Positions 3,001 through 20,938 of a DNA stretch of 64,000 nucleotides are shown in pieces. Source of the stretch: a virus (lineage: Duplodnaviria > Heunggongvirae > Uroviricota > Caudoviricetes); the IMG/VR virus record IMGVR_UViG_3300046096_000174, positions 8,024-72,023 of that record; one strand, given 5' to 3'. The notes beneath the pieces were generated by a model, which was not told the origin of the DNA, searched no databases, and was given only the letters and a program-made list of their open reading frames with translations. The position numbers were made by a program, and so were the translations under genes. Positions within the stretch are counted from its first letter, which is position 1. Each line of letters opens with the position of its first letter.

Positions 3001-3953
3001 CAATAGCTGTTTCAGTTACGGTTTCTCAACCTCCTGACTTCGTATTCAACGCTGAGTATGTAAGTGATTTCTCTGGTACAAAAGTTAATACAACTCCAGT
3101 AGTTAATACCAGTGGTTTATTAATGCTTGTCGATACAACTGAAACTTGGTCAGAGCATTTTACATCTAACTCATGGGATACACCTCAAGAACAAATTGAT
3201 GCGGGTTATGCATATTATGCACTCCCTGCAGGTTCTTTAGCAAGTTATCAAGAGGTATTTGATTATGGTCAGACACTTGCAAGCAGTAGTATTACAGTCA
3301 GCCGATTAGGTACAATCATTTCAGGTTTCCCTACAGTTTATTCTGAGATTGAAACCAGTTTAGATGGTTCCTCATGGACTACACCTCAAGCAGTAGATGC
3401 ACTTTTTGCTTTCAACTTTAGATATATCCGAATTACTGTTAAAGCTACAGCCAATAGTGACCAAGATTTATTCACCTTAACCCATTTGGTAGTTCGTTTA
3501 GATAATAAACAGATTACGGATTCAGGTAATGTTGAGGCCTTGAGTACAGATACAGTAGGTACAATTGTGAACTTTAACAAAGAGGTTATCGATGTTCAAA
3601 GTATCACCTTAACACCTGCAGGTACTACACCATTGTCAGCTGTGTATGATTTTAAAGACAGCGTTCAATCAGGAACTTACTCAACTACTTCAGAAGTTTG
3701 TACCGTAAACATTACAAGTCATGGTTTAGAAACTGGACAGAAGGTTAGATTAGCCTTCTTAACAGGTATCGGTGATAGTGGTGTTTACACTGTTACTAAG
3801 ATTACAGCCAACCAGTTTACCGTCAGCGTAACAACTGAAGATTCTTCAGGAACGCTTTCAGCTTATGCTCAGTCTATGAGAGTATATGCATTCAATTCAA
3901 CAAACGGCTCAAGGCAATCTGCTAAAGTTAGCTGGCAAATTAGAGGATATTAA
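1..3953 (+). CDS. Tail fibre / host-specificity protein (gpJ-like, FN3-like repeats), 5' partial. The frame is open from base 3; the track ORF 240..3953 is only the first in-window Met.
   Basis: Continuous open frame from the window start. The >1237 aa protein has repeated beta-rich FN3-like segments (TWDNNTEIDIKGYEVRIED, SWDAAVGSFFNIKSYIVKV). It lies directly upstream of a repeat-containing fibre gene and the lysis cassette. Confidence 0.55.
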   Translation, partial: NPRLELVCDGNPEATVTAGPWAESISTEHVDYVTVALHFPQGLRKIKSKGDGAGNSYTAPTTFEFGVYYSGDWHSLGTVVLGADAAKKDAFTYTQSFYGSVAFPVTNEGLTIRVRRNTGDNTEDNPDYRYYHQAYLQTVTFTRNAKPALDPNGCKIAKSAFKIKATDQLNGSIEGINAIVQTYTKDWNGSAWVLNSTNNPASLFRYVLEHPANAQKITNTNKFDLVQLQHWHAYCAAKGFTFNSVLGTQKSLLEVLRDICAAGRASPALVDGKWTVTIDEEKANVIQHFTPHNSWDFESSKALPRIPDGLRVTYFDEDQNYQESEVIVYATGKNSSNSSVFESIQLPGVTKKANVIDHARWHIAQAKLRPELYTLNTDIEYLVCNRGDRVKVAHDIPMWGVGSGRIKNKLSNVILELDEPQEYSSTKNYVIRVRGSDGSSTVRNIVPFSTIISHDVTDGITTVVFDAMHQFSVGQTVILNMQNDENFVNIPVTITAITDTTISYDLNEGEHESAVSYGTVKYADGFIDKVKVSASVTDAEADDLDLFIFGELASDSQDLIVLSIEPTTNKSARLTLIDYGVTPTYNIFTDYLSLTESVVFESQITLPAKLQIESFKPEQIPFITKFTSDESVMERIAAGVFKYNLKLSYSNVTGLPKTADKVQVQFDLAGATDSLNQRIVTTDFMKGSVTIPDVTEGENYKLRIRYISTENRVGTWSEWVDTTIVGKTTRPSTVTNFTALPDITTGKLDLTWDNNTEIDIKGYEVRIEDTGWGTNINRVFYGSTNTCIAAPEDSGQTNTYFIRAFDYGNNYADVSASLVYTAPTPTSATNLRYVYGTTSNTNSTVTFSWDAAVGSFFNIKSYIVKVSRPETPDEIVATASTSFTTRADWLGNAILSVTSVDAAGSESIPAELTIPKYAPDSLVSLATEVVDNNVLLRWVLPATTSLPVSHVTIRRGATWEAADKDIGTKNGTFTTVFELSGGRYTYWIATVDTDNRESEPIAVSVTVSQPPDFVFNAEYVSDFSGTKVNTTPVVNTSGLLMLVDTTETWSEHFTSNSWDTPQEQIDAGYAYYALPAGSLASYQEVFDYGQTLASSSITVSRLGTIISGFPTVYSEIETSLDGSSWTTPQAVDALFAFNFRYIRITVKATANSDQDLFTLTHLVVRLDNKQITDSGNVEALSTDTVGTIVNFNKEVIDVQSITLTPAGTTPLSAVYDFKDSVQSGTYSTTSEVCTVNITSHGLETGQKVRLAFLTGIGDSGVYTVTKITANQFTVSVTTEDSSGTLSAYAQSMRVYAFNSTNGSRQSAKVSWQIRGY

Positions 3954-10999: not shown

Positions 11000-11030
11000 A
11001 CAAAAAAGCCCCAAGCCGAAACTTGGGGTG
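11000..11030 (-). terminator. Rho-independent terminator (minus strand)
   Basis: On the minus strand, stem CCCCAAG/CTTGGGG with loop UUUCGG is followed by UUUUUU. Confidence 0.55.
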
Positions 11031-11070
11031 TGATTTCAAATTGTTATGCCATTATAGCACAAAGCAAGGC

Positions 11071-12018
11071 TTAAGCCAACAATGATTTGCGTTTATTTGC
11101 ACTTGTGATTGTTTTACGGTCACGATGTACAGCACCACAACTATTACAACGAACTTCTTCAAACTTATTTAAAGAGGTTTCAGTTGTACGGCCTGTTGGA
11201 GATACATCATCACTACCACAAACACGGCAACGAACCTTATCATCTTCGTAGTACAAGGCAGCATTAAAGTCTGAACCTGCACGACCAAGTTGGCGAGTGC
11301 GTAAGTATACCTCATAAAGTAGGTCAACGTCCTGAGCGCAGTAAGTAACCATGTCTTCCATAGCTTTTACATTGCCTTCTTGGACCCTACGCCATAGAGA
11401 AATACCGCCAGTTGAAATCTTACGACCTAAGTTAAAGAATTCACCGATAGCATCTAAACGGTTGCTAGGCAGCTTCAAATATTTCTTAACGAGTAAGAGG
11501 GTATCTAAAACCTTGACCTGAGGTAAAGGAGGGAAACCGTTAACGACTGCACGAGTTTGTACAACCTTATGGTCAAAACCTTGTGAGTTATGAGCAATAA
11601 CAGCATCAGCCTCTTCGTATAACTCAAACAATTGAGCTACTAAGCGACTATCATCTTTCTCAGCTACTTCCTGAGGGGTTAACCAGATACGATGAACTTT
11701 TTGTTCACCTAACCAGCGCCAGCAAGCACATAGCAACCAACCACCGTTATCTAAGATATTGTCCTGAGATAGGTTAACCTTGAATCGACCAAAGGTTAGA
11801 GCCGTAGCTGCAGCTGTTTCAGTATCAAAGATTAGGACACGAGGACCACCTTTATTAAAGGCTACATCGCGTGGGTCATACTGCAGTTCATTGCTGCGCT
11901 GTAGTGCATAATTTACACCACTTTTGCTAATCTCTAAAAGGCCAGCAATATCTCTGGATGATAAACCATTTGCATTTAGGTCTAAGATTGCTTTAATTGT
12001 CTCTTGTGAATATTTCAT
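11071..12018 (-). CDS. HTH - DEDD-type 3'-5' exonuclease (RNase H-like) - C-terminal zinc ribbon protein
   Basis: N-terminal HTH (LSSRDIAGLLEISKSGV). Exo motifs VLIFDTETAA and AHNSQGFDHKV. C-terminal CRVCGSD...CNSCG. Start at Met37 (12018), abutting the upstream gene. Confidence 0.55.
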   Translation of the reverse strand: MKYSQETIKAILDLNANGLSSRDIAGLLEISKSGVNYALQRSNELQYDPRDVAFNKGGPRVLIFDTETAAATALTFGRFKVNLSQDNILDNGGWLLCACWRWLGEQKVHRIWLTPQEVAEKDDSRLVAQLFELYEEADAVIAHNSQGFDHKVVQTRAVVNGFPPLPQVKVLDTLLLVKKYLKLPSNRLDAIGEFFNLGRKISTGGISLWRRVQEGNVKAMEDMVTYCAQDVDLLYEVYLRTRQLGRAGSDFNAALYYEDDKVRCRVCGSDDVSPTGRTTETSLNKFEEVRCNSCGAVHRDRKTITSANKRKSLLA

Positions 12019-12019
12019 G

Positions 12020-12544
12020 TTACTCCTGTTGGTCTTTAAACCTGCGCTTAACTTCTTCAAAGTTAATAGGCTTATAATCTGTGTGTTCCACGCTAACACA
12101 AAGGTAACGTGGGTCAATCTTACCATTTCTCATTACTCGATTATTATGCAAGTGTCCATGAATGTTACCAGCATAGCGTCCCAATGATTCCTCATGGATA
12201 GGCATATGGGTTAGCATATATTTGTCAAGCATATGGTAAGCACGAATATCACGAAAGAAGGGTAAGTACTCTTCTAACCTGAAAATATCGTGGTTGCCTT
12301 TAATCAAAATTTGGTCACCATTCAAACGATGGAGAAGTTTTAAAGCTTTGCGATTAATAACAACATCACCTAAATGATAAACCTTATCTTTAGGGCTTAC
12401 GGTTGAATTCCAAAGCTCTACCATATCTTCATCCATCTGGTCAGGGTCAATCCAAGGTCTGCATTTAGTACCGTCAGCCATGACGAACTTGCAAACCCCA
12501 ACATGACCCCAATGAGTGTCACTTGTCAGAAACACTTCGCTCAT
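12020..12544 (-). CDS. Calcineurin-like metallophosphoesterase (Ser/Thr phosphatase-like)
   Basis: Motifs DTHWGH, HLGDVV, GNHD and H.H, as in lambda PPase-type enzymes. Confidence 0.65.
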   Translation of the reverse strand: MSEVFLTSDTHWGHVGVCKFVMADGTKCRPWIDPDQMDEDMVELWNSTVSPKDKVYHLGDVVINRKALKLLHRLNGDQILIKGNHDIFRLEEYLPFFRDIRAYHMLDKYMLTHMPIHEESLGRYAGNIHGHLHNNRVMRNGKIDPRYLCVSVEHTDYKPINFEEVKRRFKDQQE

Positions 12545-12710
12545 CTACTACCTCACAATCTAATTTACGAATCCAATTGAGACAGTTGTAGTAGCCACGT
12601 TCTCTAGTCCAGTAGACTGCTTCCTCTTCACGTAACACTTCGAATGTCTCACCAATATGTTTCTTATACCAGAGCATTGAATCACAGCAAGCAATTACTT
12701 TTACTTTCAT
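12519..12710 (-). CDS. Hypothetical small protein
   Basis: ORF with start/stop overlaps to its neighbours. Confidence 0.3.
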   Translation of the reverse strand: MKVKVIACCDSMLWYKKHIGETFEVLREEEAVYWTRERGYYNCLNWIRKLDCEVVDERSVSDK

Positions 12711-13204
12711 GATTTAGCTCCTTCGATAATGTCACGAATTGTATCATACTCGAACTGTCTTGTCAAGATAGCCTTCTGAAATAACTTCTTGCGTTCAACT
12801 CCGTTTTTACAAGAAGGTTGACCTAAAGCATTCAGAACTTTGTCTTTATCGGATTCTTTTAGTTTATTAAAAGAAGTGTTAGCCTTTTTAATCCATCCCG
12901 GGTGTCGCCACCGTCTGTCTGGTTTCCTCTCAATGTAGGCTGCACACTTACGTAAGAACTCAGGTAAACCATCTGGATACCAATACAGGTATCTTACCGC
13001 TAGGTTCTCAAGCTTACCCAAAGCAGCATTAGCTTGCTTATGAGCAGCACCTCGAACCAATTGTTCTTCATCATGTTTGTGGTCTAGTGCAAAGTTATTA
13101 CTAGCAGTTGGTATTCCTGTAATTGCACATAAACCATTTTGTTCTTGGATTAGCATTTCCCGAACCTTCTTTACATCAGCTGTATTGTATAAATCTACTG
13201 TCAT
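12707..13204 (-). CDS. Hypothetical protein with a degenerate Endo VII / HNH-like core (CAITG...LDHKHD...H)
   Basis: Weak resemblance to the Endonuclease_7 motif, but most Zn-ligand cysteines are lacking. Could be an inactive paralogue of 14178..14621. Confidence 0.3.
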   Translation of the reverse strand: MTVDLYNTADVKKVREMLIQEQNGLCAITGIPTASNNFALDHKHDEEQLVRGAAHKQANAALGKLENLAVRYLYWYPDGLPEFLRKCAAYIERKPDRRWRHPGWIKKANTSFNKLKESDKDKVLNALGQPSCKNGVERKKLFQKAILTRQFEYDTIRDIIEGAKS

Positions 13205-14181
13205 ACTTCAACTCCCAAGTTTTTAGCGAAAGCAATAAAATCACTATCATCATTCTTAGACCGCTTCATATAGGCACAGCGCCAATACATTTGTAGCATA
13301 TCAAACCAATCTGCATTCATATGCACAACACCATGACAATCTGTATAAGTGAATGGTTCAGGGTACAAGCGTTTAAATTCACTGATTAGTACCAAGAGTA
13401 CTTCTTGTTCGTTATTAGCTGTCAGAAGCGCATTCATAGCCTTTGTAGGGCCATACTTCAAAGTAGACAATTCATAACCACAGTATGTATCTGCAGTATC
13501 ACCAGCTAGGGTTTGATAAGCCAAGAAGCGTAAGCCTTCTCCTTTAATCGTAGTCTTCTCTTTGTAGAGAGTACCTAATTCAGGGATTAGCTTTAATTCC
13601 CAAGGGTCTTTCTGCCAATTCAATACATGCACTCGTTGAGTTTGTTGAGCATCTTTATCGTTACTACTAAGAATAGGGTCATTACCTTTTTCTAATTCCT
13701 CATAAGAACGAATCGTAACCCAATCATCAACCTCTAGGTCAATATCTTTTAAGATAACAGCACCGAATTTATTTACCATGTACTCTCTAGTATCATTCAA
13801 CAGTAAAGGTCGTAATGAATCTTCACGATTGTTTTTATATCCAGATGGCAGTGGTAAGGCATGTCGGAAAGTTTTACCTGAGCCTAAATAAATCTCTACT
13901 CTATCAGCCCATGTGAATTCAGTCATCTTCGTGATAAACTTATTAATGGTTGACATAGTAAAAGCTGCATCACCTACAGTTTGAATATCTTCGATTTCAT
14001 ATTCTTCTGGCACATACGTATAGTTCACTTCTGCAAGATATTCCTTGAAAGCTGTACGTGTTTTAAAGATACGTTCTTTCTTGGATTTGATATGCTTTGC
14101 ACAAATACTACGTTGCTCACCTGCGGCTGCAAATCGGTAAGCAATTAAATCACCATCCACGATTAAAACTTTTTCTGTCAT
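13201..14181 (-). CDS. 5'-3' exonuclease / flap endonuclease (T5 D15 / T7 gp6-like, PIN-FEN fold)
   Basis: N-terminal VLIVDGDLIAYRF with the acidic metal-binding residues typical of the FEN family. Confidence 0.65.
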   Translation of the reverse strand: MTEKVLIVDGDLIAYRFAAAGEQRSICAKHIKSKKERIFKTRTAFKEYLAEVNYTYVPEEYEIEDIQTVGDAAFTMSTINKFITKMTEFTWADRVEIYLGSGKTFRHALPLPSGYKNNREDSLRPLLLNDTREYMVNKFGAVILKDIDLEVDDWVTIRSYEELEKGNDPILSSNDKDAQQTQRVHVLNWQKDPWELKLIPELGTLYKEKTTIKGEGLRFLAYQTLAGDTADTYCGYELSTLKYGPTKAMNALLTANNEQEVLLVLISEFKRLYPEPFTYTDCHGVVHMNADWFDMLQMYWRCAYMKRSKNDDSDFIAFAKNLGVEV

Positions 14182-14621
14182 TTATTCCTTTCCAGATACT
14201 TAATAGCTTCTTGTAGAAACAATGTATTATCTTTAAAACTTCCTAAGCCTCTATTACAATTAGTACATAAAAGACCACGGATTTTACCTGTTGCGTGGCA
14301 GTGGTCGATATGTGTCAATTTACCTTCTTCAGATAAAGAAGTTAAACATATGGCACAAGAATATTGTTGACTCTGCAACATACTCCTTCTATCATCTAGT
14401 GATAAATCATATTTAGTTTTAAAATAAGAACCCCGTCTAGCTTCTTTATAGTAAGGTGAATCTTTATTCTCTGAATGCCATTTCCTAGATTTAGCTGTGG
14501 CACACACTTTGCAATAGTATGCATAGCCTCTGATGGCTGTAGAATCTTTGTGAAATTCTGAGAATATCTTATGGGAATCGCATGCCTTACAGTAGAGAGT
14601 ATCAACTCTTACTTCTATCAT
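14178..14621 (-). CDS. Recombination endonuclease VII-like (HNH-type Holliday junction resolvase)
   Basis: Canonical Endonuclease_7 motif CAICLTSL...HIDHCHATGKIRGLLCTNCNRGLG. Confidence 0.65.
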   Translation of the reverse strand: MIEVRVDTLYCKACDSHKIFSEFHKDSTAIRGYAYYCKVCATAKSRKWHSENKDSPYYKEARRGSYFKTKYDLSLDDRRSMLQSQQYSCAICLTSLSEEGKLTHIDHCHATGKIRGLLCTNCNRGLGSFKDNTLFLQEAIKYLERNK

Positions 14622-14970
14622 GGATTTCCTTCACTAAATAGATAAATACTTCTAGCCTATTTCGTCTAGCTTGCATAATCATGTTTGCAGTTCCTTTGCT
14701 AACACCATCCCATACTGCGATTAAAGCATCAGCATATTCAGCCATTTCTTTATTCCGCATAGGTCCAGCTGCACGACCATTTTTATTCCAATCAGCAGGA
14801 AACCCTACTACAGGAATATTCGCACCTAAGGCATAGATTTCACCTAAGGTATCGACACCTTTTGCTTTACCTGACACTACCTCTGTAATTTCAAATCCAG
14901 AAGCTTTAATAGCATCTTGCACTATATTGAAACTTGTGAAGTCTCTGCCACCAGCAATAATTACTTTCAT
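14602..14970 (-). CDS. SLOG/DprA-LOG-like Rossmann protein (DUF2493-like)
   Basis: MKVIIAGGRDF...GxD...PMRNKEM pattern, as in YspA/LOG-type nucleotide-binding domains. Confidence 0.4.
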   Translation of the reverse strand: MKVIIAGGRDFTSFNIVQDAIKASGFEITEVVSGKAKGVDTLGEIYALGANIPVVGFPADWNKNGRAAGPMRNKEMAEYADALIAVWDGVSKGTANMIMQARRNRLEVFIYLVKEIHDRSKS

Positions 14971-14984
14971 AATTTCTCCTTAAA

Positions 14985-15013
14985 GAAAAACCCGAAGGTT
15001 TTATTCCTTCGGG
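14985..15013 (-). terminator. Rho-independent terminator (minus strand)
   Basis: On the minus strand, stem CCCGAAGG/CCTTCGGG with loop AAUAAAA is followed by UUUUUC. Confidence 0.55.
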
Positions 15014-15022
15014 TTCTAGTGA

Positions 15023-15241
15023 TTAGCTGCGAGAGATATCGATAGCTTTTAGCACTTCATTTGACTTAGCGATTAAGTCATCTACTTTGTTCTTGACGAT
15101 AGCCTTAGCTACTGCACTTAAGATAGCAGGGTCTAAGCCTGATTCTTTAGCTTCATCTTTCACTGCCTTTACGTCTTCAGCTAGTGATTGTTCTTCGGTG
15201 TATAGACGAACGAGTTTTGCGATTGCTTCTTTACTTTGCAT
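15023..15241 (-). CDS. Hypothetical coiled-coil protein
   Basis: ORF located after the terminator. Confidence 0.35.
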   Translation of the reverse strand: MQSKEAIAKLVRLYTEEQSLAEDVKAVKDEAKESGLDPAILSAVAKAIVKNKVDDLIAKSNEVLKAIDISRS

Positions 15242-15242
15242 A

Positions 15243-15449
15243 TTAGTCCTTTGAGAAAGTAGGTTTGTACATCCATGTTAAGTTCATTACCACTACAGCT
15301 AACCAGCTATAGAAGGTGTAAGGAATACTTAAAATAGGGAATAGTGTATTCAAAGCCCAAACTGTTGCAAAAGGTCCGAAGATTACAATAGCAATAATTA
15401 ATAGGCAGAAAAACACTAGTTTGATAATATCTTTAGTTGTCTTAGTCAT
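15243..15449 (-). CDS. Small two-TM membrane protein
   Basis: Two hydrophobic helices. Confidence 0.35.
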   Translation of the reverse strand: MTKTTKDIIKLVFFCLLIIAIVIFGPFATVWALNTLFPILSIPYTFYSWLAVVVMNLTWMYKPTFSKD

Positions 15450-15470
15450 AAATAAATCCTTTCAAGAGAA

Positions 15471-17808: not shown

Positions 17809-18135
17809 ATTACTCCTTCAAAGTATACTGAAATACCTAGTGTTACCAAATTACACTACTACCACACCGTAGGTCAGAATCGAACTGACATTAGATACTT
17901 CAGTATACCCTCAGTCCCTAAACTGAAAATATACTGTCTTTCATATTCGGTACAACGTCAGGGGTTGTATTATTCCGTATCTGTTTGACGACTGTCATCA
18001 AGTCTAGAAGGCCCGTACTGTTACTCGACTAATTGTAACATGTATTTTACCTATACGTGCCCTGTCGGGTCGCATAGCGCCGAAGTGTGCTGCTAACTCT
18101 AGGGATACGAGCAACAAGCATGGCGGGACTTATTT

Positions 18136-18237
18136 TGGTGCAACTGGATGGGCTCGAACCATCGGCTTGGTTTTCCCTCTGGCATTAGGTCCTTCACCAT
18201 GAAGAGGTTCCTGCTCTACCAACTGAGCTACAGTCGC
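18136..18237 (-). tRNA. tRNA-like element with an abnormal central region, about 102 nt
   Basis: Minus-strand reading GCGACTG-TA-GCTCAGTTGGTAGAGC ... GATGGTTCGAGCCCATC-CAGTTGC-A-CCA. The acceptor stem, D-arm and T-arm are canonical. The 49-nt segment between the D and T arms has no standard 5-7-5 anticodon arm. Its best pairing is CCTCT/AGAGG enclosing 22 nt. Confidence 0.4.
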
Positions 18238-18587
18238 AAATCGTAATGTCTTTTTCTATGGCAATTCGCACAAAGAAGTAGACACTTATCTAATTCATCT
18301 TCAATTTTCTTACTCCATGATGTTGCCCTTACCTTTGAAATATTAAAATCTTTTTCTTCTGGATTCATATGATGAAAATCATAGATTGCTTGATGGTCAA
18401 TTATACCACAATCTTCACAGCTACCACCCTTATACTCAACCGCCAATTTTTTAAAACTTCTCTGTCTTTCAAGTGTAGTTTCATGGATACAAACCTTGCA
18501 CCAAGAATGGAACTGATTTTTTCTTCTACCATAAAATTCTTTTAAATTTTTCTCTTGCTTACATCTACTACATGTTTTAGTTTCCAT
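18228..18587 (-). CDS. HNH homing endonuclease
   Basis: Cys clusters with CANCHRKRH. The stop codon lies inside the 5' acceptor stem of the downstream tRNA-like element. Confidence 0.7.
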   Translation of the reverse strand: METKTCSRCKQEKNLKEFYGRRKNQFHSWCKVCIHETTLERQRSFKKLAVEYKGGSCEDCGIIDHQAIYDFHHMNPEEKDFNISKVRATSWSKKIEDELDKCLLLCANCHRKRHYDLRL

Positions 18588-18600
18588 ATCACCCTTAAAT

Positions 18601-18679
18601 TGGCGCGTCTGGAGGGATTCGAACCCCCATTGACTCCATTACGATACTACGGTGTAGAAGACCGTTTCGGTACAGACGC
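18601..18679 (-). tRNA. tRNA-like element lacking a normal D-arm (possible Arg-UCU anticodon arm)
   Basis: Acceptor GCGTCTG/CAGACGC-G-CCA. T-arm GGGGG-TTCGAAT-CCCTC. Hairpin ACGGT-CTTCTAC-ACCGT. Only 5 nt separate the acceptor and the anticodon stem. Confidence 0.35.
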
Positions 18680-18747
18680 ATGTTTGTACGGGCCTTGCAC
18701 CCGATGGTAGCTCAATCTCAGCTATGAGTTAACAGGGTGCGACCCTA

Positions 18748-19218
18748 TCATTGCTCCATTGTACCAAGAAATTTGAAGTTCTCAACAACTACTTGCAATT
18801 TAAACAAATAATTTCTACTGTAAGAACCTACATCACCTCCTACTACAATACGATGATACATTTTATCAGCAATCATATCCTTCAACAAATAAGTCTTAAT
18901 GATATAAGCACCGATTGTACCATCTGGTTTATGAATCTTGTACAGGTAGTAGTCAGCTTTTGAAATTGCTATTCCAGAAGCACGACCCCAACTTTCATAT
19001 TCTACACCAATATTGCCAGTTCTTGCACAACTAAAATCTTCTTTGATTTCAATCGTTACCTCACGCCCTTTAGGAAAACGCATACGTAAATCATAGTCTG
19101 AGTTATTACACTCATCTACAAAAGCGAGTCCATGCTTTTCAGCTAGGAAGCTTGCTATTTGCTTTTCAGTTTTACGTGCTATCTTAAAGTCGGTAGCAAA
19201 GTCGTAATTAGGCTGCAT
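18748..19218 (-). CDS. Hypothetical protein (possible PD-(D/E)xK-like D...EIK motif)
   Basis: DYDLRM...VTIEIKED pattern only; weak. Confidence 0.3.
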   Translation of the reverse strand: MQPNYDFATDFKIARKTEKQIASFLAEKHGLAFVDECNNSDYDLRMRFPKGREVTIEIKEDFSCARTGNIGVEYESWGRASGIAISKADYYLYKIHKPDGTIGAYIIKTYLLKDMIADKMYHRIVVGGDVGSYSRNYLFKLQVVVENFKFLGTMEQ

Positions 19219-20938
19219 TCAATTGTGAGTTAAGCAAACTACGAATTTCATCTACACTAGTTTCTTTCACAAGTTTACCATCTTTAAAGACAGTTTGCAA
19301 GCAACCTTGAGCTTCTTGCTCTTTAGTTTGTTGGTCATACAACACAAACTTACCGTCTTCAAACTCAACTCGCAATAAACCCTTAGCAGACTTCTTAGTA
19401 CCGCTGTCAGTGATAGGGTCTTTGTATAACTCAGAACCTTCACCATTAACTTCGGCATAAGTAGCTTTCATAGCAAAACCAAATGAATCACGAGTGACGT
19501 ATTGGTAAGTATAAGAGCCGATACCGAAGACTACGTTACTAGAAGCAAAACCCTTGGCTTTCAAACGCTTGAGAATTTGGTCAGCACGTTCTAAGGTAAT
19601 TGAATCACCGTAGATTAAGCCAACGTGTTCATCAAGCATCTTAAAGCCTTCGGCATTTACTGTGCCACCGAAAGTATCCCATAAGCATTGTACTGCACCT
19701 TTTTGTGCTGGTGACAATTCAACTGGTTCGAAACTAACAAGTCGGCTACCATCAATATAGTAGTATTGTTTGTCGTAACGATTCCACTCAAGTTCAACAG
19801 TTGCCAAATATACTTGACCTTCAAACAAGAAGTAATCACTTGGCGCATCATCACCTATTTCACCGTGGTCGGTTTCTGCACGTACACGAGATTCAATTAC
19901 ATCCTCTGCCCAACGTTTAGCCTCTTCTAGCGTAGTTGAGTTAAGTTTTTGAATCTCAATACCACAAAGAATCTCAACAGGGTCACCACTATCAGGACGG
20001 AATACAACTTTGTTCAAACCGATAGCGTTAGGAGTACGAGCCATAATCTCAGGCTTTAACTCTTTAGCCATGTCGGTAATAACATGCCAGAAATCCCATG
20101 TATCGCTAACAATACTGACAACACCAGAAGGACATACTTCAGTAATCAAACGGCGAAATGTTTCAATCTCTGATTCTTTACCACCAGCGCACATAACGCT
20201 ATGTTCAGTAGCAGGTACAGAACCACCGATAAACGTATTTAAACCACCGTAGAAGGCTTCCAAATAGTCAATGGCAGGGATAGTATCAGTACCCAAGAAA
20301 GACGTTAAGTGACCGCTGGCGCTGGCTGCATCATTCAGACCGCTTAAACCACGGTAGCTGAAGTCGTGACCTTGCCACAATACGAAGTCCAATGGCGCAC
20401 CAGTTTCCTTAGCATATTTGGTAAGAATCTTGCGATACTCAAACGCAGTAGTCGCAGTAGTGATTGGCTTCCACAATTCAGTACTAACTGCAGTCTCAAG
20501 ATAGTTAGTCAACCAGAAAAATTCTGGCAATGTATTCTTGATAGTGAGTACTGGAACTTTGATATCTACCAATGAACCTTCTGGCAAAGCTTTGATTTCG
20601 ATAGGCAAGTAGCCTAAGTCCCACAATGCTGCAATATGGTCAGTACCAACTACACCTTCACCAAGTGCCATATCTACACGGCGCTTGTATTCAGATACTA
20701 CGACAGCTTTTGGTTTGGCGAAGAAACCGTAGTGAAAAGCTTCCATCAAGAAAGACTTGATAAAACCTTGCAAACCAAACATCACAATTTGGTCAGGCTT
20801 CTTAGCGCCAGCACTAGGTGCAAGACGGTTAGAGCGTGGTGTGAAGTTACTGTAAATCATGGTAGTACCTTTAGGGTACATATCTTTGTGACCTACTTTA
20901 TAAAAATCACATGCTGTCATCGGGTTAATATAACTCAT
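19208..20938 (-). CDS. Nicotinamide phosphoribosyltransferase family protein (NadV/NAMPT-like; candidate Namat of a NARP1-type pathway)
   Basis: N-terminal TACDFYKVGHKDMYPKG (NAMPT D-S/F-YK-H motif). About 575 aa. Confidence 0.75.
   Translation of the reverse strand: MSYINPMTACDFYKVGHKDMYPKGTTMIYSNFTPRSNRLAPSAGAKKPDQIVMFGLQGFIKSFLMEAFHYGFFAKPKAVVVSEYKRRVDMALGEGVVGTDHIAALWDLGYLPIEIKALPEGSLVDIKVPVLTIKNTLPEFFWLTNYLETAVSTELWKPITTATTAFEYRKILTKYAKETGAPLDFVLWQGHDFSYRGLSGLNDAASASGHLTSFLGTDTIPAIDYLEAFYGGLNTFIGGSVPATEHSVMCAGGKESEIETFRRLITEVCPSGVVSIVSDTWDFWHVITDMAKELKPEIMARTPNAIGLNKVVFRPDSGDPVEILCGIEIQKLNSTTLEEAKRWAEDVIESRVRAETDHGEIGDDAPSDYFLFEGQVYLATVELEWNRYDKQYYYIDGSRLVSFEPVELSPAQKGAVQCLWDTFGGTVNAEGFKMLDEHVGLIYGDSITLERADQILKRLKAKGFASSNVVFGIGSYTYQYVTRDSFGFAMKATYAEVNGEGSELYKDPITDSGTKKSAKGLLRVEFEDGKFVLYDQQTKEQEAQGCLQTVFKDGKLVKETSVDEIRSLLNSQLNAA

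What the first reader, a model, noticed from the sequence alone, without database searches (positions are those of the whole stretch)
18136..18679. HNH endonuclease gene sandwiched between two non-canonical tRNA-like elements on the minus strand
Both flanking elements have textbook acceptor stems, T-arms (GGTTCGAGCCC and GGGTTCGAATCCC) and encoded CCA, but their interiors are wrong. Element A (102 nt) has a perfect D-arm but a 49-nt insert with no 5-7-5 anticodon arm. Its best pairing is CCTCT/AGAGG enclosing 22 nt, so the anticodon loop reads as though interrupted. Element B (79 nt) has an Arg-UCU-like anticodon hairpin but essentially no D-arm. The HNH stop codon lies inside the acceptor stem of A. 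Possibilities are tRNAs disrupted by mobile-endonuclease activity, intron-containing or structurally minimal tRNAs, or tRNA-like decoys or processing signals.
Basis: seen in the sequence. Interest (0 to 1): 0.55.

Follow-up and report, generated by a model that had tools for sequence, protein, structure and literature searches.

The report
Non-cloverleaf phage tRNA-Arg beside HNH
A selfish endonuclease gene has landed between two conserved, unannotated phage RNA genes: an arginine tRNA rebuilt so that it is no longer a cloverleaf, and a tRNA-shaped RNA with a foreign module in place of its anticodon arm. The first looks like a natural non-cloverleaf tRNA used by viruses of bacteria.

Summary
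ARAGORN calls neither element. Rfam's tRNA model hits both above threshold, but with the D arm (B) or the anticodon arm (A) deleted or replaced.

The "wrong interiors" are not damage. Both elements belong to discrete, conserved RNA families whose helices covary.

**Element B (18601-18679, minus strand).** It occupies the slot where close relatives carry a canonical tRNA-Arg(UCU). It keeps the acceptor stem, T arm and the CUUCUAC anticodon loop. The anticodon arm is nested inside a covarying 3-bp D-stem-like helix, and D-loop-like nucleotides (UAAUGGA) lie in the linker to the T arm. I found about 28 distinct members in phages of Pseudomonas, Limnohabitans, Sinorhizobium and in metagenomes. All carry Arg anticodons, and none is annotated as an RNA gene. 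None shares a locus with a canonical tRNA-Arg(UCU).

**Element A (18136-18237).** It belongs to a family (17 distinct members) of tRNA-scaffold RNAs that sit inside phage tRNA arrays. A 43-nt structured module replaces the anticodon arm. It is not a decoder.

**The HNH gene.** It is a free-standing homing-endonuclease insertion placed right after B's CCA. HNH-free relatives have B and A 4-9 nt apart. HNH genes are enriched next to B-type alleles but are not exclusive to them.

That B is charged and decodes is inferred, not shown.

The parts
18601..18679 (-). Element B: 'B-type' tRNA-Arg(UCU), 79 nt. RNA position n corresponds to coordinate 18680-n. Acceptor 1-7/69-75; U8 A9 C10; helix P2 11-13/36-38 (CGA/UCG); anticodon stem 15-19/27-31; loop CUUCUAC with anticodon UCU at 18656-18658; 4-nt bulge AGUA; linker UAAUGGAGUCAAU (39-51; D-loop-like plus variable-loop-like); T arm 52-68; G73; CCA.
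   Evidence: Rfam tRNA 39.5 bits. Family alignment A3: 99.3% of cells paired, 17/20 pairs with changes on both sides, 0/500 shuffles reach this. Model R1 scores the window copy 103.3 bits against <=37.7 for ordinary tRNAs. A canonical tRNA-Arg(UCU) sits at the same slot in relatives.
18228..18587 (-). Free-standing HNH homing-endonuclease gene (119 aa). The ATG lies 13 nt after B's CCA, preceded by AAGGGUGAU. The last 10 nt, including the stop, overlap element A.
   Evidence: ORF list. PHROG 2255 HNH endonuclease, E 2e-35. 58% identical to the HNH that directly follows the B-type gene of Pseudomonas phage PAK_P2. Absent from L025, L021 and L116, where the two RNA genes are 4-6 nt apart.
18136..18237 (-). 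Element A: tRNA-scaffold RNA, 102 nt. It has a canonical acceptor stem, D arm, 5-nt variable loop, T arm, A73 and CCA. The anticodon arm is replaced by a 43-nt module (18169-18211): outer 2-bp helix, A-rich internal loop, 5-bp stem CCUCU/AGAGG, internal loop UCAU/UAAUGCC, and a 3-bp hairpin with pentaloop GAAGG.
   Evidence: Rfam tRNA 45.2 bits with a 41-nt insertion. Family of 17 distinct sequences: 98.4% paired, 13/26 pairs with double changes, 0/500 shuffles. Model R2 scores members >=91 bits and ordinary tRNAs <=53.5. Members are embedded in tRNA arrays on the same strand.
18758..18785 (-). Promoter-like site (TTGAGA-16 nt-TACAAT with an upstream TG) that could drive the RNA-gene array.
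   Evidence: Consensus scan, 10 of 12 matches. This is a consensus match only; function is not shown.
18680..18747 (-). Conserved 68-nt leader with two hairpins (GGGUCGCACCC; CGGGUGCAAGGCCCG) directly upstream of the tRNA-Arg slot.
   Evidence: Read directly from the sequence. Nearly the same sequence precedes the canonical tRNA-Arg in L024, L025 and L026.

Best explanation
The locus is a polycistronic phage RNA-gene array: leader, tRNA-Arg slot, tRNA-like RNA, then a longer structured RNA. A free-standing HNH homing-endonuclease gene has inserted into it immediately after the CCA of the tRNA-Arg gene.

**Element B** is most likely the phage's working tRNA-Arg(UCU), built on a non-cloverleaf plan.
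- The anticodon arm emerges from inside a 3-bp D-stem-like helix (P2) and stacks on it. This gives about the same helix length as D stem plus anticodon stem in a normal tRNA.
- The nucleotides that normally form the D loop (A..GG-A, including the A20 equivalent used by ArgRS) and the 5-nt variable loop are supplied as a single-stranded linker running to the T arm.
- The acceptor/T-arm half (7/5), the T loop, U33, A37, C35/U36 and R73 are canonical. RNase P, CCA maintenance, ArgRS, EF-Tu and the ribosome could therefore all use it.

**Element A** is not a decoder. It is a tRNA-scaffold RNA, matured with the tRNAs, that displays a conserved 43-nt module of unknown ligand.

**The HNH gene** did not damage either RNA gene. 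Homing-endonuclease-driven gene conversion is the likely vehicle that replaced a canonical tRNA-Arg allele by the B-type allele in this lineage. Because the HNH ORF ends inside element A, RNase P cleavage at A's 5' end would leave a non-stop HNH mRNA. RNA maturation and endonuclease expression should therefore compete.

*Shown:* the anatomy, family membership, covariation, allelic replacement and insertion point. *Inferred:* expression, charging, decoding, 3D shape, homing, and the processing conflict.
For: **B occupies a tRNA-Arg slot.**
- L024, L025, L026, L028, L030 and others (42 of the 80 relatives fetched on the neighbouring DUF7275 gene) have an ARAGORN-called tRNA-Arg(UCU) there.
- L026's allele differs from B at only 4 of 54 positions outside the D and variable regions (read by eye).

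**The structure is supported by covariation.**
- 22 distinct B-types: 99.3% paired, P2 100% paired. Pair 12:37 is GC or AU; pair 13:36 is GC, CG, UG or AU. Slid controls give 35-48% paired.
- BLAST-found divergent members (Phosso, LPML1, Bitten, ventosus) fit the same model at 58-70 bits with P2 CGG/CCG, CUC/GAG and CGU/GCG.

**The anticodon points to arginine.**
- A search pattern that did not include the anticodon returned only Arg anticodons among true hits: UCU in all but L128, which has CCU. The loop is always 7 nt, YU-NNN-A-M.

**The tRNA sets are complementary.**
- No B-type locus holds a canonical Arg(UCU).
- The complete genomes of DC31 (6 tRNAs) and PAK_P2 (14 tRNAs) have no other Arg tRNA.
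- Arrays holding a B-type do have canonical Arg(ACG), Arg(UCG) or Arg(CCG).

**The phages need this tRNA.**
- AGA makes up 32% of Arg codons in DC31, 18% in PAK_P2 and 13% in the window.

**The D-loop signature is kept.**
- GGA is retained in every member. The heptamer UAAUGGA is shared with canonical D arms of relatives, for example L024 GUAUAAUGGAUAAUAC.

**There is experimental precedent.**
- E. coli HisRS, EF-Tu and the ribosome accept an engineered D-armless tRNA (PMC11551756).

**HNH is an insertion.**
- Window: CCA|AUUUAAGGGUGAU-AUG...CAUUAC|GAUUUGCGACUG. L025: CCA-GAUU-GCGACUG.
- The B-plus-HNH order is conserved in PAK_P2.
- HNH genes of three PHROG families abut or lie within 500 nt of B-type genes. 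In the syntenic clade and its likely metagenomic relatives the counts are 5/8 B-type loci versus 2/25 canonical alleles (Fisher p about 0.005; computed with 24 canonical alleles).
- T4 SegB spreads itself together with the surrounding tRNA genes (PMC2330249).

**A is a family of its own.**
Against: - There are no expression, processing or aminoacylation data for any member.
- ArgRS normally contacts the D arm. Whether the relocated GGA sits where A20 should is unknown.
- The L-shape is argued only from helix lengths. No 3D model was built.
- The engineered D-armless tRNA in E. coli was limited by PNPase-dependent decay (PMC11551756), so stability is a real concern.
- The invariance of UAAUGGAGUCAAUG in A3 is partly by construction, because it was my search pattern. 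TCA and GAAGG in family A have the same bias.
- The HNH association is not exclusive. Canonical loci L037 (EndoVII-like ORF) and L083 (HNH, phrog_14913) also carry nucleases, and most B-type loci outside the clade have no HNH. Loci are phylogenetically non-independent, three of the eight B-type loci were assigned to the clade by allele similarity only, and not every small ORF at canonical loci was screened, so the p-value is only indicative.
- A few point changes would be enough for endonuclease immunity, so homing does not explain why the architecture arose.
- Element A's function is unknown.
Confidence: 0.6

Rival explanations
1. B is a tRNA-Arg mimic that is not used in translation. It would be a decoy or bait that presents the tRNA-Arg(UCU) anticodon stem-loop and acceptor end to a host factor (an anticodon nuclease, a modification enzyme or ArgRS), for instance to soak up a tRNA-targeting defence.
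For: The anticodon loop, acceptor stem and T arm are conserved while the body is unorthodox. Phage tRNA loci can act as anti-defence loci, and HEGs accompany them (PMC13096335). Standard tRNA finders reject B.
Against: B replaces the canonical tRNA-Arg(UCU) rather than accompanying it. Phages that use AGA heavily would then lose their only supplementary decoder. The ArgRS-type features (GGA, C35, U36, R73), the EF-Tu-type 7/5 branch and the canonical T loop are all kept, which a simple anticodon-loop bait would not need.
Confidence: 0.22
2. The two elements serve mainly as tRNA-like processing signals ('punctuation'). RNase P and 3' processing would release and regulate the HNH mRNA and the neighbouring transcripts.
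For: The HNH ORF starts 13 nt after B's CCA and ends 10 nt inside A. The same overlap with a downstream tRNA is seen in PAK_P2. Cleavage at A's 5' end would remove the stop codon (inference).
Against: Both RNA families exist, with covarying internal helices and invariant loops, in many loci that have no HNH or other ORF between them. The internal modules are therefore under selection of their own. Processing is a consequence of their shape, not a sufficient explanation. This rival is compatible with the best explanation rather than exclusive of it.
Confidence: 0.1
3. A (and perhaps B) are intron-containing or otherwise interrupted tRNA genes that are spliced or edited to canonical tRNAs.
For: A has 26 extra nucleotides exactly in the anticodon arm. 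ARAGORN calls the L021 and L052 copies of A 'tRNA-Arg(acg)' with the anticodon at position 38.
Against: The pairing ARAGORN needs (CCUCU/GAAGG) is not maintained in L066, L055 or L146. The 31-35/58-62 and 40-42/48-50 helices covary instead. No sub-sequence gives a 5-bp stem plus a 7-nt loop with U33. Position 39 takes all four bases. The insert is far too short for a group I intron (general knowledge), and nothing resembling a bulge-helix-bulge splice motif is apparent. B already has a perfect anticodon arm.
Confidence: 0.04
4. They are decaying tRNA pseudogenes damaged by endonuclease activity or sloppy repair.
For: They lie adjacent to an HNH gene, and tRNA finders fail on them.
Against: Both families are deeply diverged yet 98-99% base-paired, with many compensatory changes. 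Both are present without HNH. Models R1 and R2 separate them cleanly from ordinary tRNAs. The B-type gene is 78/78 identical across Pakpunavirus and P. putida phages.
Confidence: 0.03

Closest known systems
Canonical phage tRNA-Arg(UCU) (T4 tRNA-Arg; the alleles in relatives L024-L055)
   Same: Same genomic slot, same anticodon loop (CUUCUAA/C), same 7-bp acceptor stem, 5-bp T stem and UUCGAAU loop, R73 and CCA. The GGA of the D loop is kept.
   Different: B has no D hairpin. The D-stem-like helix encloses the anticodon arm, and the D-loop-like bases lie 3' of it. The result is a three-way junction, not a cloverleaf. ARAGORN and genome annotators miss it.
D-armless mitochondrial tRNA-Ser(AGY) of animals, and the engineered 'mini HisT' used by E. 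coli (PMC11551756, PMC9427863)
   Same: These are tRNAs that work without a D hairpin. The E. coli work shows that a bacterial aaRS, EF-Tu and ribosome tolerate this.
   Different: Those tRNAs simply lack the arm and have a short replacement loop. B keeps a covarying D-stem analogue and a D-loop-like GG-A element in a new order. B is also natural, lives in the bacterial cytoplasm, is phage-encoded, and is specific for Arg.
(8/4) and (9/3) allo-tRNAs of bacteria and phages (PMC5389517)
   Same: Non-standard tRNA architectures found in phage tRNA clusters and missed by standard expectations.
   Different: Those are still four-armed cloverleaves with a redistributed acceptor/T branch. B has the standard 7/5 branch and a rearranged core.
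T4 segB - tRNA-Arg - rnaD - rnaC segment (T4 record; PMC2330249; PMC13096335)
   Same: A homing-endonuclease gene abuts tRNA-Arg(UCU), followed by stable RNAs of unknown function; rnaC carries a T-arm-like hairpin. SegB spreads itself plus the neighbouring tRNA genes. HEG-tRNA co-localisation is general.
   Different: SegB is GIY-YIG, not HNH. T4's tRNA-Arg is canonical. rnaC and rnaD are not hit by model R2 and show no evident similarity to element A.
Bacterial Y-RNA-like YrlA (Rfam RF02553) and laboratory 'tRNA scaffolds' for recombinant RNA
   Same: tRNA-like modules used as a chassis for another RNA function. A YrlA-like fold lies 220 nt downstream of A. The laboratory scaffold likewise replaces the anticodon arm with a payload (my own knowledge; PMC3753655 was listed but not read).
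   Different: A has true 5'/3' acceptor pairing, a D arm and a T arm in the normal order. It does not match YrlA. Its payload and ligand are unknown.

Membership tests
tRNA (Rfam RF00005), element B | Score at or above the curated gathering threshold of the family model | tested here: met
   39.5 bits against a gathering score of 29, but the alignment deletes the D arm.
tRNA (canonical cloverleaf), element B | D hairpin (3-4 bp stem closing an 8-11 nt loop) between position 9 and the anticodon arm | tested here: not met
   Only 5 nt lie there. The covarying helix 11-13/36-38 encloses the anticodon arm instead. ARAGORN makes no call.
tRNA (functional features), element B | 7-bp acceptor stem, 5-bp T stem with UUCRANY loop, 5-bp anticodon stem with a 7-nt loop, U33 and purine 37, discriminator and CCA | tested here: met
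   All are present in the window copy. The 22 aligned members (A3) plus the four divergent members keep these features, with isolated stem mismatches, though CCA is not encoded in four.
tRNA-Arg isoacceptor, element B | Arg anticodon with C35 and U36, an A20-type adenine after GG, A/G73; charging by ArgRS | tested here: inconclusive
   The sequence features are present in all members: UCU or CCU, GGA, and mostly A/G73. Whether the relocated A acts as A20, and whether ArgRS charges the RNA, cannot be tested with these tools.
tRNA, element A | Anticodon arm of 5 bp with a 7-nt loop | tested here: not met
   It is replaced by a 43-nt module whose helices covary. The acceptor stem, D arm, T arm and variable loop are canonical, and Rfam scores it 45.2 bits.
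Free-standing HNH homing endonuclease | HNH/beta-beta-alpha-Me nuclease motif with zinc-binding cysteines | tested here: met
   PHROG 2255, E 2e-35. CEDCG...HH...N...CANCH is visible in the translation. Pfam PF01844 scores only 18.2 bits, below its cut-off of 21.4.
Free-standing HNH homing endonuclease | Presence/absence polymorphism at a precise site between otherwise collinear relatives | tested here: met
   The gene is inserted between CCA and GAUU. L025, L021 and L116 have the two RNA genes 4-6 nt apart.
Free-standing HNH homing endonuclease | Site-specific cleavage of the HEG-less allele and preferential inheritance in mixed infection | not testable with these tools
   This needs enzyme assays and phage crosses.
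Intron-containing tRNA (group I or bulge-helix-bulge) | Removal of the insert restores a canonical anticodon arm; intron-type structure present | tested here: not met
   No such excision exists in A. The insert is 26 nt, and the covarying helices are incompatible with it.
YrlA / Y RNA-like (RF02553) | Gathering score of 69 bits | tested here: not met
   Neither A nor B matches. A neighbouring element at 17816-17912 scores 31.4 bits, E 1.7e-4.
T4 species 1 / species 2 RNAs (rnaC, rnaD) | Sequence or structure similarity to those RNAs | tested here: not met
   Model R2 hits only the tRNAs in the T4 locus L155, not positions 1409-1672. The resemblance is positional only.

The most novel reading that the evidence does not exclude
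B-type RNAs are genuinely charged with arginine and read AGA/AGG on bacterial ribosomes. That would make them the first natural non-cloverleaf tRNA family known to work in a bacterial cytoplasm. The anticodon arm is nested in the D stem and the D-loop bases are relocated. The family would be spread between unrelated phages by homing endonucleases, possibly because the rebuilt core escapes a DNA- or RNA-level nuclease that recognises the canonical tRNA-Arg.
Probability: 0.5. Interest if true: 0.85.

Novelty: new variant of a known kind. Interest (0 to 1): 0.72.

Why it matters
[quoted passage not shown] I found no description of this architecture in six full-text searches. A conserved, Arg-specific, non-cloverleaf tRNA carried by cultured phages (PAK_P2, JG003, five P. 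putida phages, phiPsa397, DC31, Phosso) would overturn that statement. It would also be testable at once in tractable hosts.
- **Annotation.** Standard annotation misses real RNA genes in phage tRNA arrays. No record annotates a B-type gene as an RNA gene, and two records lay a 'hypothetical protein' CDS over it. Phage tRNA complements and codon-supply analyses are therefore biased.
- **Engineering.** The design gives a natural template for orthogonal or nuclease-resistant tRNA scaffolds.
- **Evolution.** The link to HNH genes gives a concrete case of homing endonucleases swapping tRNA alleles.
- **A wider class.** Element A, and the other scaffold RNAs that occupy its slot in relatives, point to an unexplored class of tRNA-chassis RNAs. 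They resemble the long-unexplained T4 species 1 and 2 RNAs in position.

Tried and rejected
1. **A mini D hairpin CCG-AAA-CGG in B.** Rejected: it destroys the anticodon stem, which covaries (ACGGU/ACCGU, ACGCU/AGCGU, AUGAU/AUCAU, CGGAG/CUCCG). It is also impossible in DC31.
2. **ViennaRNA's pairing of CCG(10-12) with UGG(42-44).** Rejected for positions 11-12, because position 12 covaries with 37, not with the invariant U42.
3. **ARAGORN's 'tRNA-Arg(acg)' reading of A homologues.** Rejected by covariation.
4. **My first regex screen for HNH next to canonical alleles ('0 of 42').** It under-counted. PHROG scans found an EndoVII-like ORF in L037 and an HNH in L083, so the claim was weakened to 'enriched, not exclusive'.
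5. **MAFFT alignments of Phosso, LPML1 (A2) and L147, L082 (A4).** These were out of register. I used model-based alignment instead.
6. **BLAST of the 341-nt region downstream of A against isolated phages.** No match.
7. **PDB sequence searches for the DUF7275 protein and the 156-aa ORF.** No hits.
8. **Ideas for A's loop.** I considered a Shine-Dalgarno mimic, pairing with the CUUC of the tRNA-Arg loop, and resemblance to the sarcin-ricin loop. These rest on 4-6 nt only and were not pursued.
9. **B and A as two halves of one split tRNA.** Rejected: each has its own complete acceptor stem, and A occurs with canonical tRNA-Arg (L025).
10. **Literature searches for a prior description of D-arm-lacking phage tRNAs.** Nothing found.
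Full report
**Observation.** On the minus strand the window reads as follows.
- A 156-aa ORF (19218-18748).
- A 68-nt leader.
- Element B (18679-18601).
- 13 nt carrying a ribosome-binding site.
- A 119-aa HNH ORF (18587-18228).
- Element A (18237-18136), which overlaps the ORF by 10 nt.
- About 327 nt of non-coding sequence.
- A DUF7275 gene (17808-17005).

The stop codon is U8-A9-G10 of A, not part of its acceptor stem. ARAGORN finds ten ordinary tRNAs at 57.4-59.0 kb but nothing here. Rfam's tRNA model reports both elements above its gathering score, as the two lowest-scoring of twelve tRNA hits in the window. It skips 41 nt in A's anticodon arm and deletes B's D arm.

**What the window is.** It is a Pakpunavirus-like phage. 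The nearest isolate is Limnohabitans phage DC31, at about 75% nucleotide identity over patches. I fetched 80 IMG/VR relatives anchored on the DUF7275 gene. I then gathered further loci by pattern scans and BLAST.

**Element B is an alternative allele of tRNA-Arg(UCU).**
- In 42 of the 80 relatives the same slot holds an ARAGORN-called canonical tRNA-Arg(UCU). The slot is recognisable by the leader upstream in the closest relatives (L024-L026) and by the structured RNA and DUF7275 gene downstream.
- The L026 allele (GUGUCUG-UA-GUUCAGUUGGAUAGAAC-A-GCGGU-CUUCUAC-ACCGC-AUGUC-GGGGGUUCGAAUCCCUC-CAGACAC-G-CCA) matches B almost base for base.
- There are two differences. The 17-nt D arm is replaced by CCGAA, and the 5-nt variable loop is replaced by AGUAUCGUAAUGGAGUCAAUG.

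**B-type genes form a discrete family.**
- I assembled 22 distinct sequences for alignment A3. Four BLAST-found divergent members (Phosso, LPML1, Bitten, ventosus), L092 and a truncated copy in L126 bring the total to about 28.
- The structure is: acceptor 1-7/69-75, helix P2 11-13/36-38, anticodon stem 15-19/27-31, T stem 52-56/64-68.
- On A3, 99.3% of cells are paired and 17 of 20 pairs change on both sides. None of 500 shuffles reaches this, and slid controls give 35-48%.
- P2 is 100% paired, with GC/AU at pair 12:37 and GC/CG/UG/AU at pair 13:36.
- A covariance model (R1) scores members at 57.7 bits or more and ordinary tRNAs at 37.7 or less.
- The divergent members found by BLAST rather than by my pattern fit the same architecture.
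- L092, read by eye, has a 5-bp P2 (CCUCU/AGAGG), but model R1 scores it only 17.6 bits.

**Caveat on ascertainment.** UAAUGGAGUCAAUG was the search pattern, so its invariance in A3 is by construction. Across the BLAST-found members only (U)A(A)U(U)GGA and the trailing AUG persist.

**Reading the architecture (inference).**
- The order of parts is: acceptor, U8 A9 N10, 5' strand of a D-stem-like helix, one nucleotide, the complete anticodon arm, a bulge of 3-12 nt, the 3' strand of the helix, then a linker.
- The linker looks like a D loop (A-A-U-G-G-A) joined directly to a 5-nt variable loop. The T arm follows.
- Canonical phage tRNA-Arg D arms in the relatives contain the same heptamer UAAUGGA (L024 GUAUAAUGGAUAAUAC).
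- P2 (3-5 bp) plus the single spacer nucleotide plus the 5-bp anticodon stem gives a 9-11-layer stack. The canonical D stem, 26:44 pair and anticodon stem give 10 layers.
- The GG could reach the canonical T loop (UUCGAAU), as G18/G19 do in a normal tRNA.
- The adenine after GG sits where ArgRS's A20 determinant would be (ArgRS identity is from established knowledge).

**Evidence that B decodes rather than merely mimics.**
1. It replaces the canonical allele instead of joining it. No B-type locus contains a canonical Arg(UCU). The complete genomes of DC31 and PAK_P2 have no other tRNA-Arg.
2. B-type genes sit in arrays that do contain Arg(ACG), Arg(UCG) or Arg(CCG). The one CCU-bearing B-type (L128) complements canonical UCG and CCG.
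3. An anticodon-blind pattern recovered only Arg anticodons, in a standard 7-nt loop.
4. The phages use AGA heavily: 32% of Arg codons in DC31 and 18% in PAK_P2 (plus 12% AGG).
5. E. coli's synthetase, EF-Tu and ribosome accepted an engineered D-armless tRNA. PNPase-dependent decay was the limiting factor (PMC11551756).

None of this shows charging. I put the functional-tRNA reading at about 0.5-0.6 and a non-decoding mimic at about 0.2.

**Element A.**
- HNH-free relatives carry the same 102-nt element 4-9 nt after the tRNA-Arg gene, whether that gene is canonical (L025, L052, L066, L049, L055) or B-type (L021, L116).
- A pattern scan added members from unrelated phage tRNA arrays. These lie on the same strand, 5-10 nt from their neighbours, and often lack an encoded CCA.
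- Seventeen distinct sequences support the following parts: a canonical acceptor stem, D arm, T arm and variable loop; a 2-bp outer helix; an A-rich internal loop; a covarying 5-bp stem (CCUCU/AGAGG, CCGCU/AGCGG, CCGAC/GUCGG, CCUCC/GGAGG, CCACC/GGUGG, CCCAC/GUGGG); an internal loop UCAN/NAAUGCC; and a 3-bp hairpin (GGU/ACC or GGC/GCC) with a GAAGG loop.
- The alignment is 98.4% paired, with 13 of 26 pairs changed on both sides and 0 of 500 shuffles reaching this. The alignment was fitted to the model, and TCA and GAAGG were part of the search pattern.
- Model R2 scores full-length members at 91 bits or more (a 5'-truncated copy in L027 scores 76) and ordinary tRNAs at 53.5 or less.
- There is no 7-nt anticodon loop and no U33, so A is not a decoder.
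- In other relatives the same slot holds different tRNA-scaffold RNAs (L030, L044, L068). This suggests a class of tRNA-chassis RNAs with exchangeable payloads. Their ligands are unknown.

**The HNH gene.**
- It is a typical small phage HNH endonuclease (PHROG 2255).
- Comparison with L025 places the insertion exactly between CCA and the GAUU spacer.
- PAK_P2 has a 58%-identical HNH in the same position after its B-type gene. That ORF likewise ends inside the next tRNA.
- DC31 has a 44%-identical HNH that ends at B's first base.
- L007, L123 and L092 have a PHROG 1271 HNH downstream; L130 has one upstream on the opposite strand.
- phiPsa397 and Bitten have a PHROG 23251 HNH upstream.
- In the syntenic clade and its likely metagenomic relatives, 5 of 8 distinct B-type loci have an adjacent HNH, against 2 of 25 canonical alleles (L037, L083). 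Fisher p is about 0.005 (computed with 24 canonical alleles). This is indicative only. The loci are related, three B-type loci were assigned to the clade by allele similarity, not every small ORF at canonical loci was screened, and my first screen missed the two canonical cases.
- The B-type gene is 78/78 identical in P. aeruginosa and P. putida phages of different groups. That fits horizontal movement.

T4 offers the precedent. There, segB abuts tRNA-Arg, which is followed by the stable RNAs rnaD and rnaC. SegB recognises a tRNA T-arm motif and spreads itself with the surrounding tRNA genes (PMC2330249). HEG-tRNA co-localisation is general (PMC13096335). I therefore read the HNH as an ordinary homing element. 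It probably carried the B-type allele into this lineage, replacing a canonical one. Four close relatives (window, L024, L025/L026, DC31) carry three or four different alleles in this one slot.

**Consequence of the overlap (inference).** RNase P cleavage 5' of A's G1 (between 18238 and 18237) would cut inside codon 117 and remove the stop codon. Maturation of A and synthesis of full-length HNH would then be mutually exclusive on any one transcript. That is a plausible brake on the endonuclease.

**Novelty.**
- An HNH gene between phage tRNA genes is ordinary.
- The two RNA families are not described in Rfam. Only the generic tRNA model hits them.
- No GenBank record I inspected annotates them as RNA genes. 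Two records lay a 'hypothetical protein' CDS over the B-type gene.
- Six full-text searches found no description of them.
- B is a new structural variant of a known kind (a tRNA). A is a new tRNA-like family of unknown role.

Noticed in passing
window 17809-18135 (-), especially 17816-17912: A ~327-nt conserved structured non-coding stretch lies between element A and the DUF7275 gene. Its 3' part is a long terminal stem enclosing a T-arm-like hairpin (GUCAGUUCGAUUCUGAC) and a D-arm-like hairpin. It resembles bacterial Y-RNA-like YrlA (Rfam 31.4 bits, E 1.7e-4, below the gathering score of 69). Relatives keep shared motifs and a covarying long stem. MFE z-score is -2.3.
   Followed up: partly
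window 18680-18747 (-) and 18758-18785 (-): A 68-nt leader with two hairpins is conserved upstream of whichever tRNA-Arg allele the relatives carry. It is preceded by a promoter-like TTGAGA-16-TACAAT site inside the end of the upstream ORF.
   Followed up: partly
window 18748-19218 (-): A 156-aa ORF (PHROG 13596, unknown function; no Pfam or PDB match) is present in the window and L026. It is absent in L024, L025 and L021, where the NAMPT gene runs straight into the leader. This is another presence/absence polymorphism at this hot spot.
   Followed up: partly
L030 3428-3531; L044 3300-3414; L068 3558-3671; L140 11136-11248; L021 688-775: Other tRNA-scaffold RNAs have canonical acceptor, D and T arms but two unrelated hairpins in place of the anticodon arm. 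They occupy element A's slot, or sit in tRNA arrays, in related phages.
   Followed up: partly
L003 (PAK_P2) 3530-3615, 3688-3771, 3866-3945: The PAK_P2 tRNA cluster holds several more odd tRNA-like elements. One starts with a T arm, and one has a long variable arm and a CUAGAAA loop. ARAGORN does not call any of them.
   Followed up: no
L155 (phage T4) 1409-2419: T4 has the order segB, tRNA-Arg, rnaD, rnaC: a homing endonuclease, tRNA-Arg(UCU), then two stable RNAs of unknown function. This is the same logic as the window's locus.
   Followed up: partly
L037 2964-3395; L083 3332-3799: Canonical tRNA-Arg loci can also carry nucleases: an EndoVII-like ORF in L037 and a PHROG 14913 HNH in L083. 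The tRNA-Arg slot is therefore a general landing site for homing endonucleases.
   Followed up: yes
window 11021-15454: This stretch is 77% identical to a 5-kb river-water record (OM954018, 'Flumine sipho-like phage 1') whose feature is annotated 'RNA-dependent RNA polymerase'. That is probably a mis-annotated fragment of a DNA phage.
   Followed up: no
window 19208-20938 (-): A 576-aa nicotinamide phosphoribosyltransferase (NAMPT/NAPRTase domains) lies just upstream of the RNA island. PAK_P2 also encodes one.
   Followed up: no
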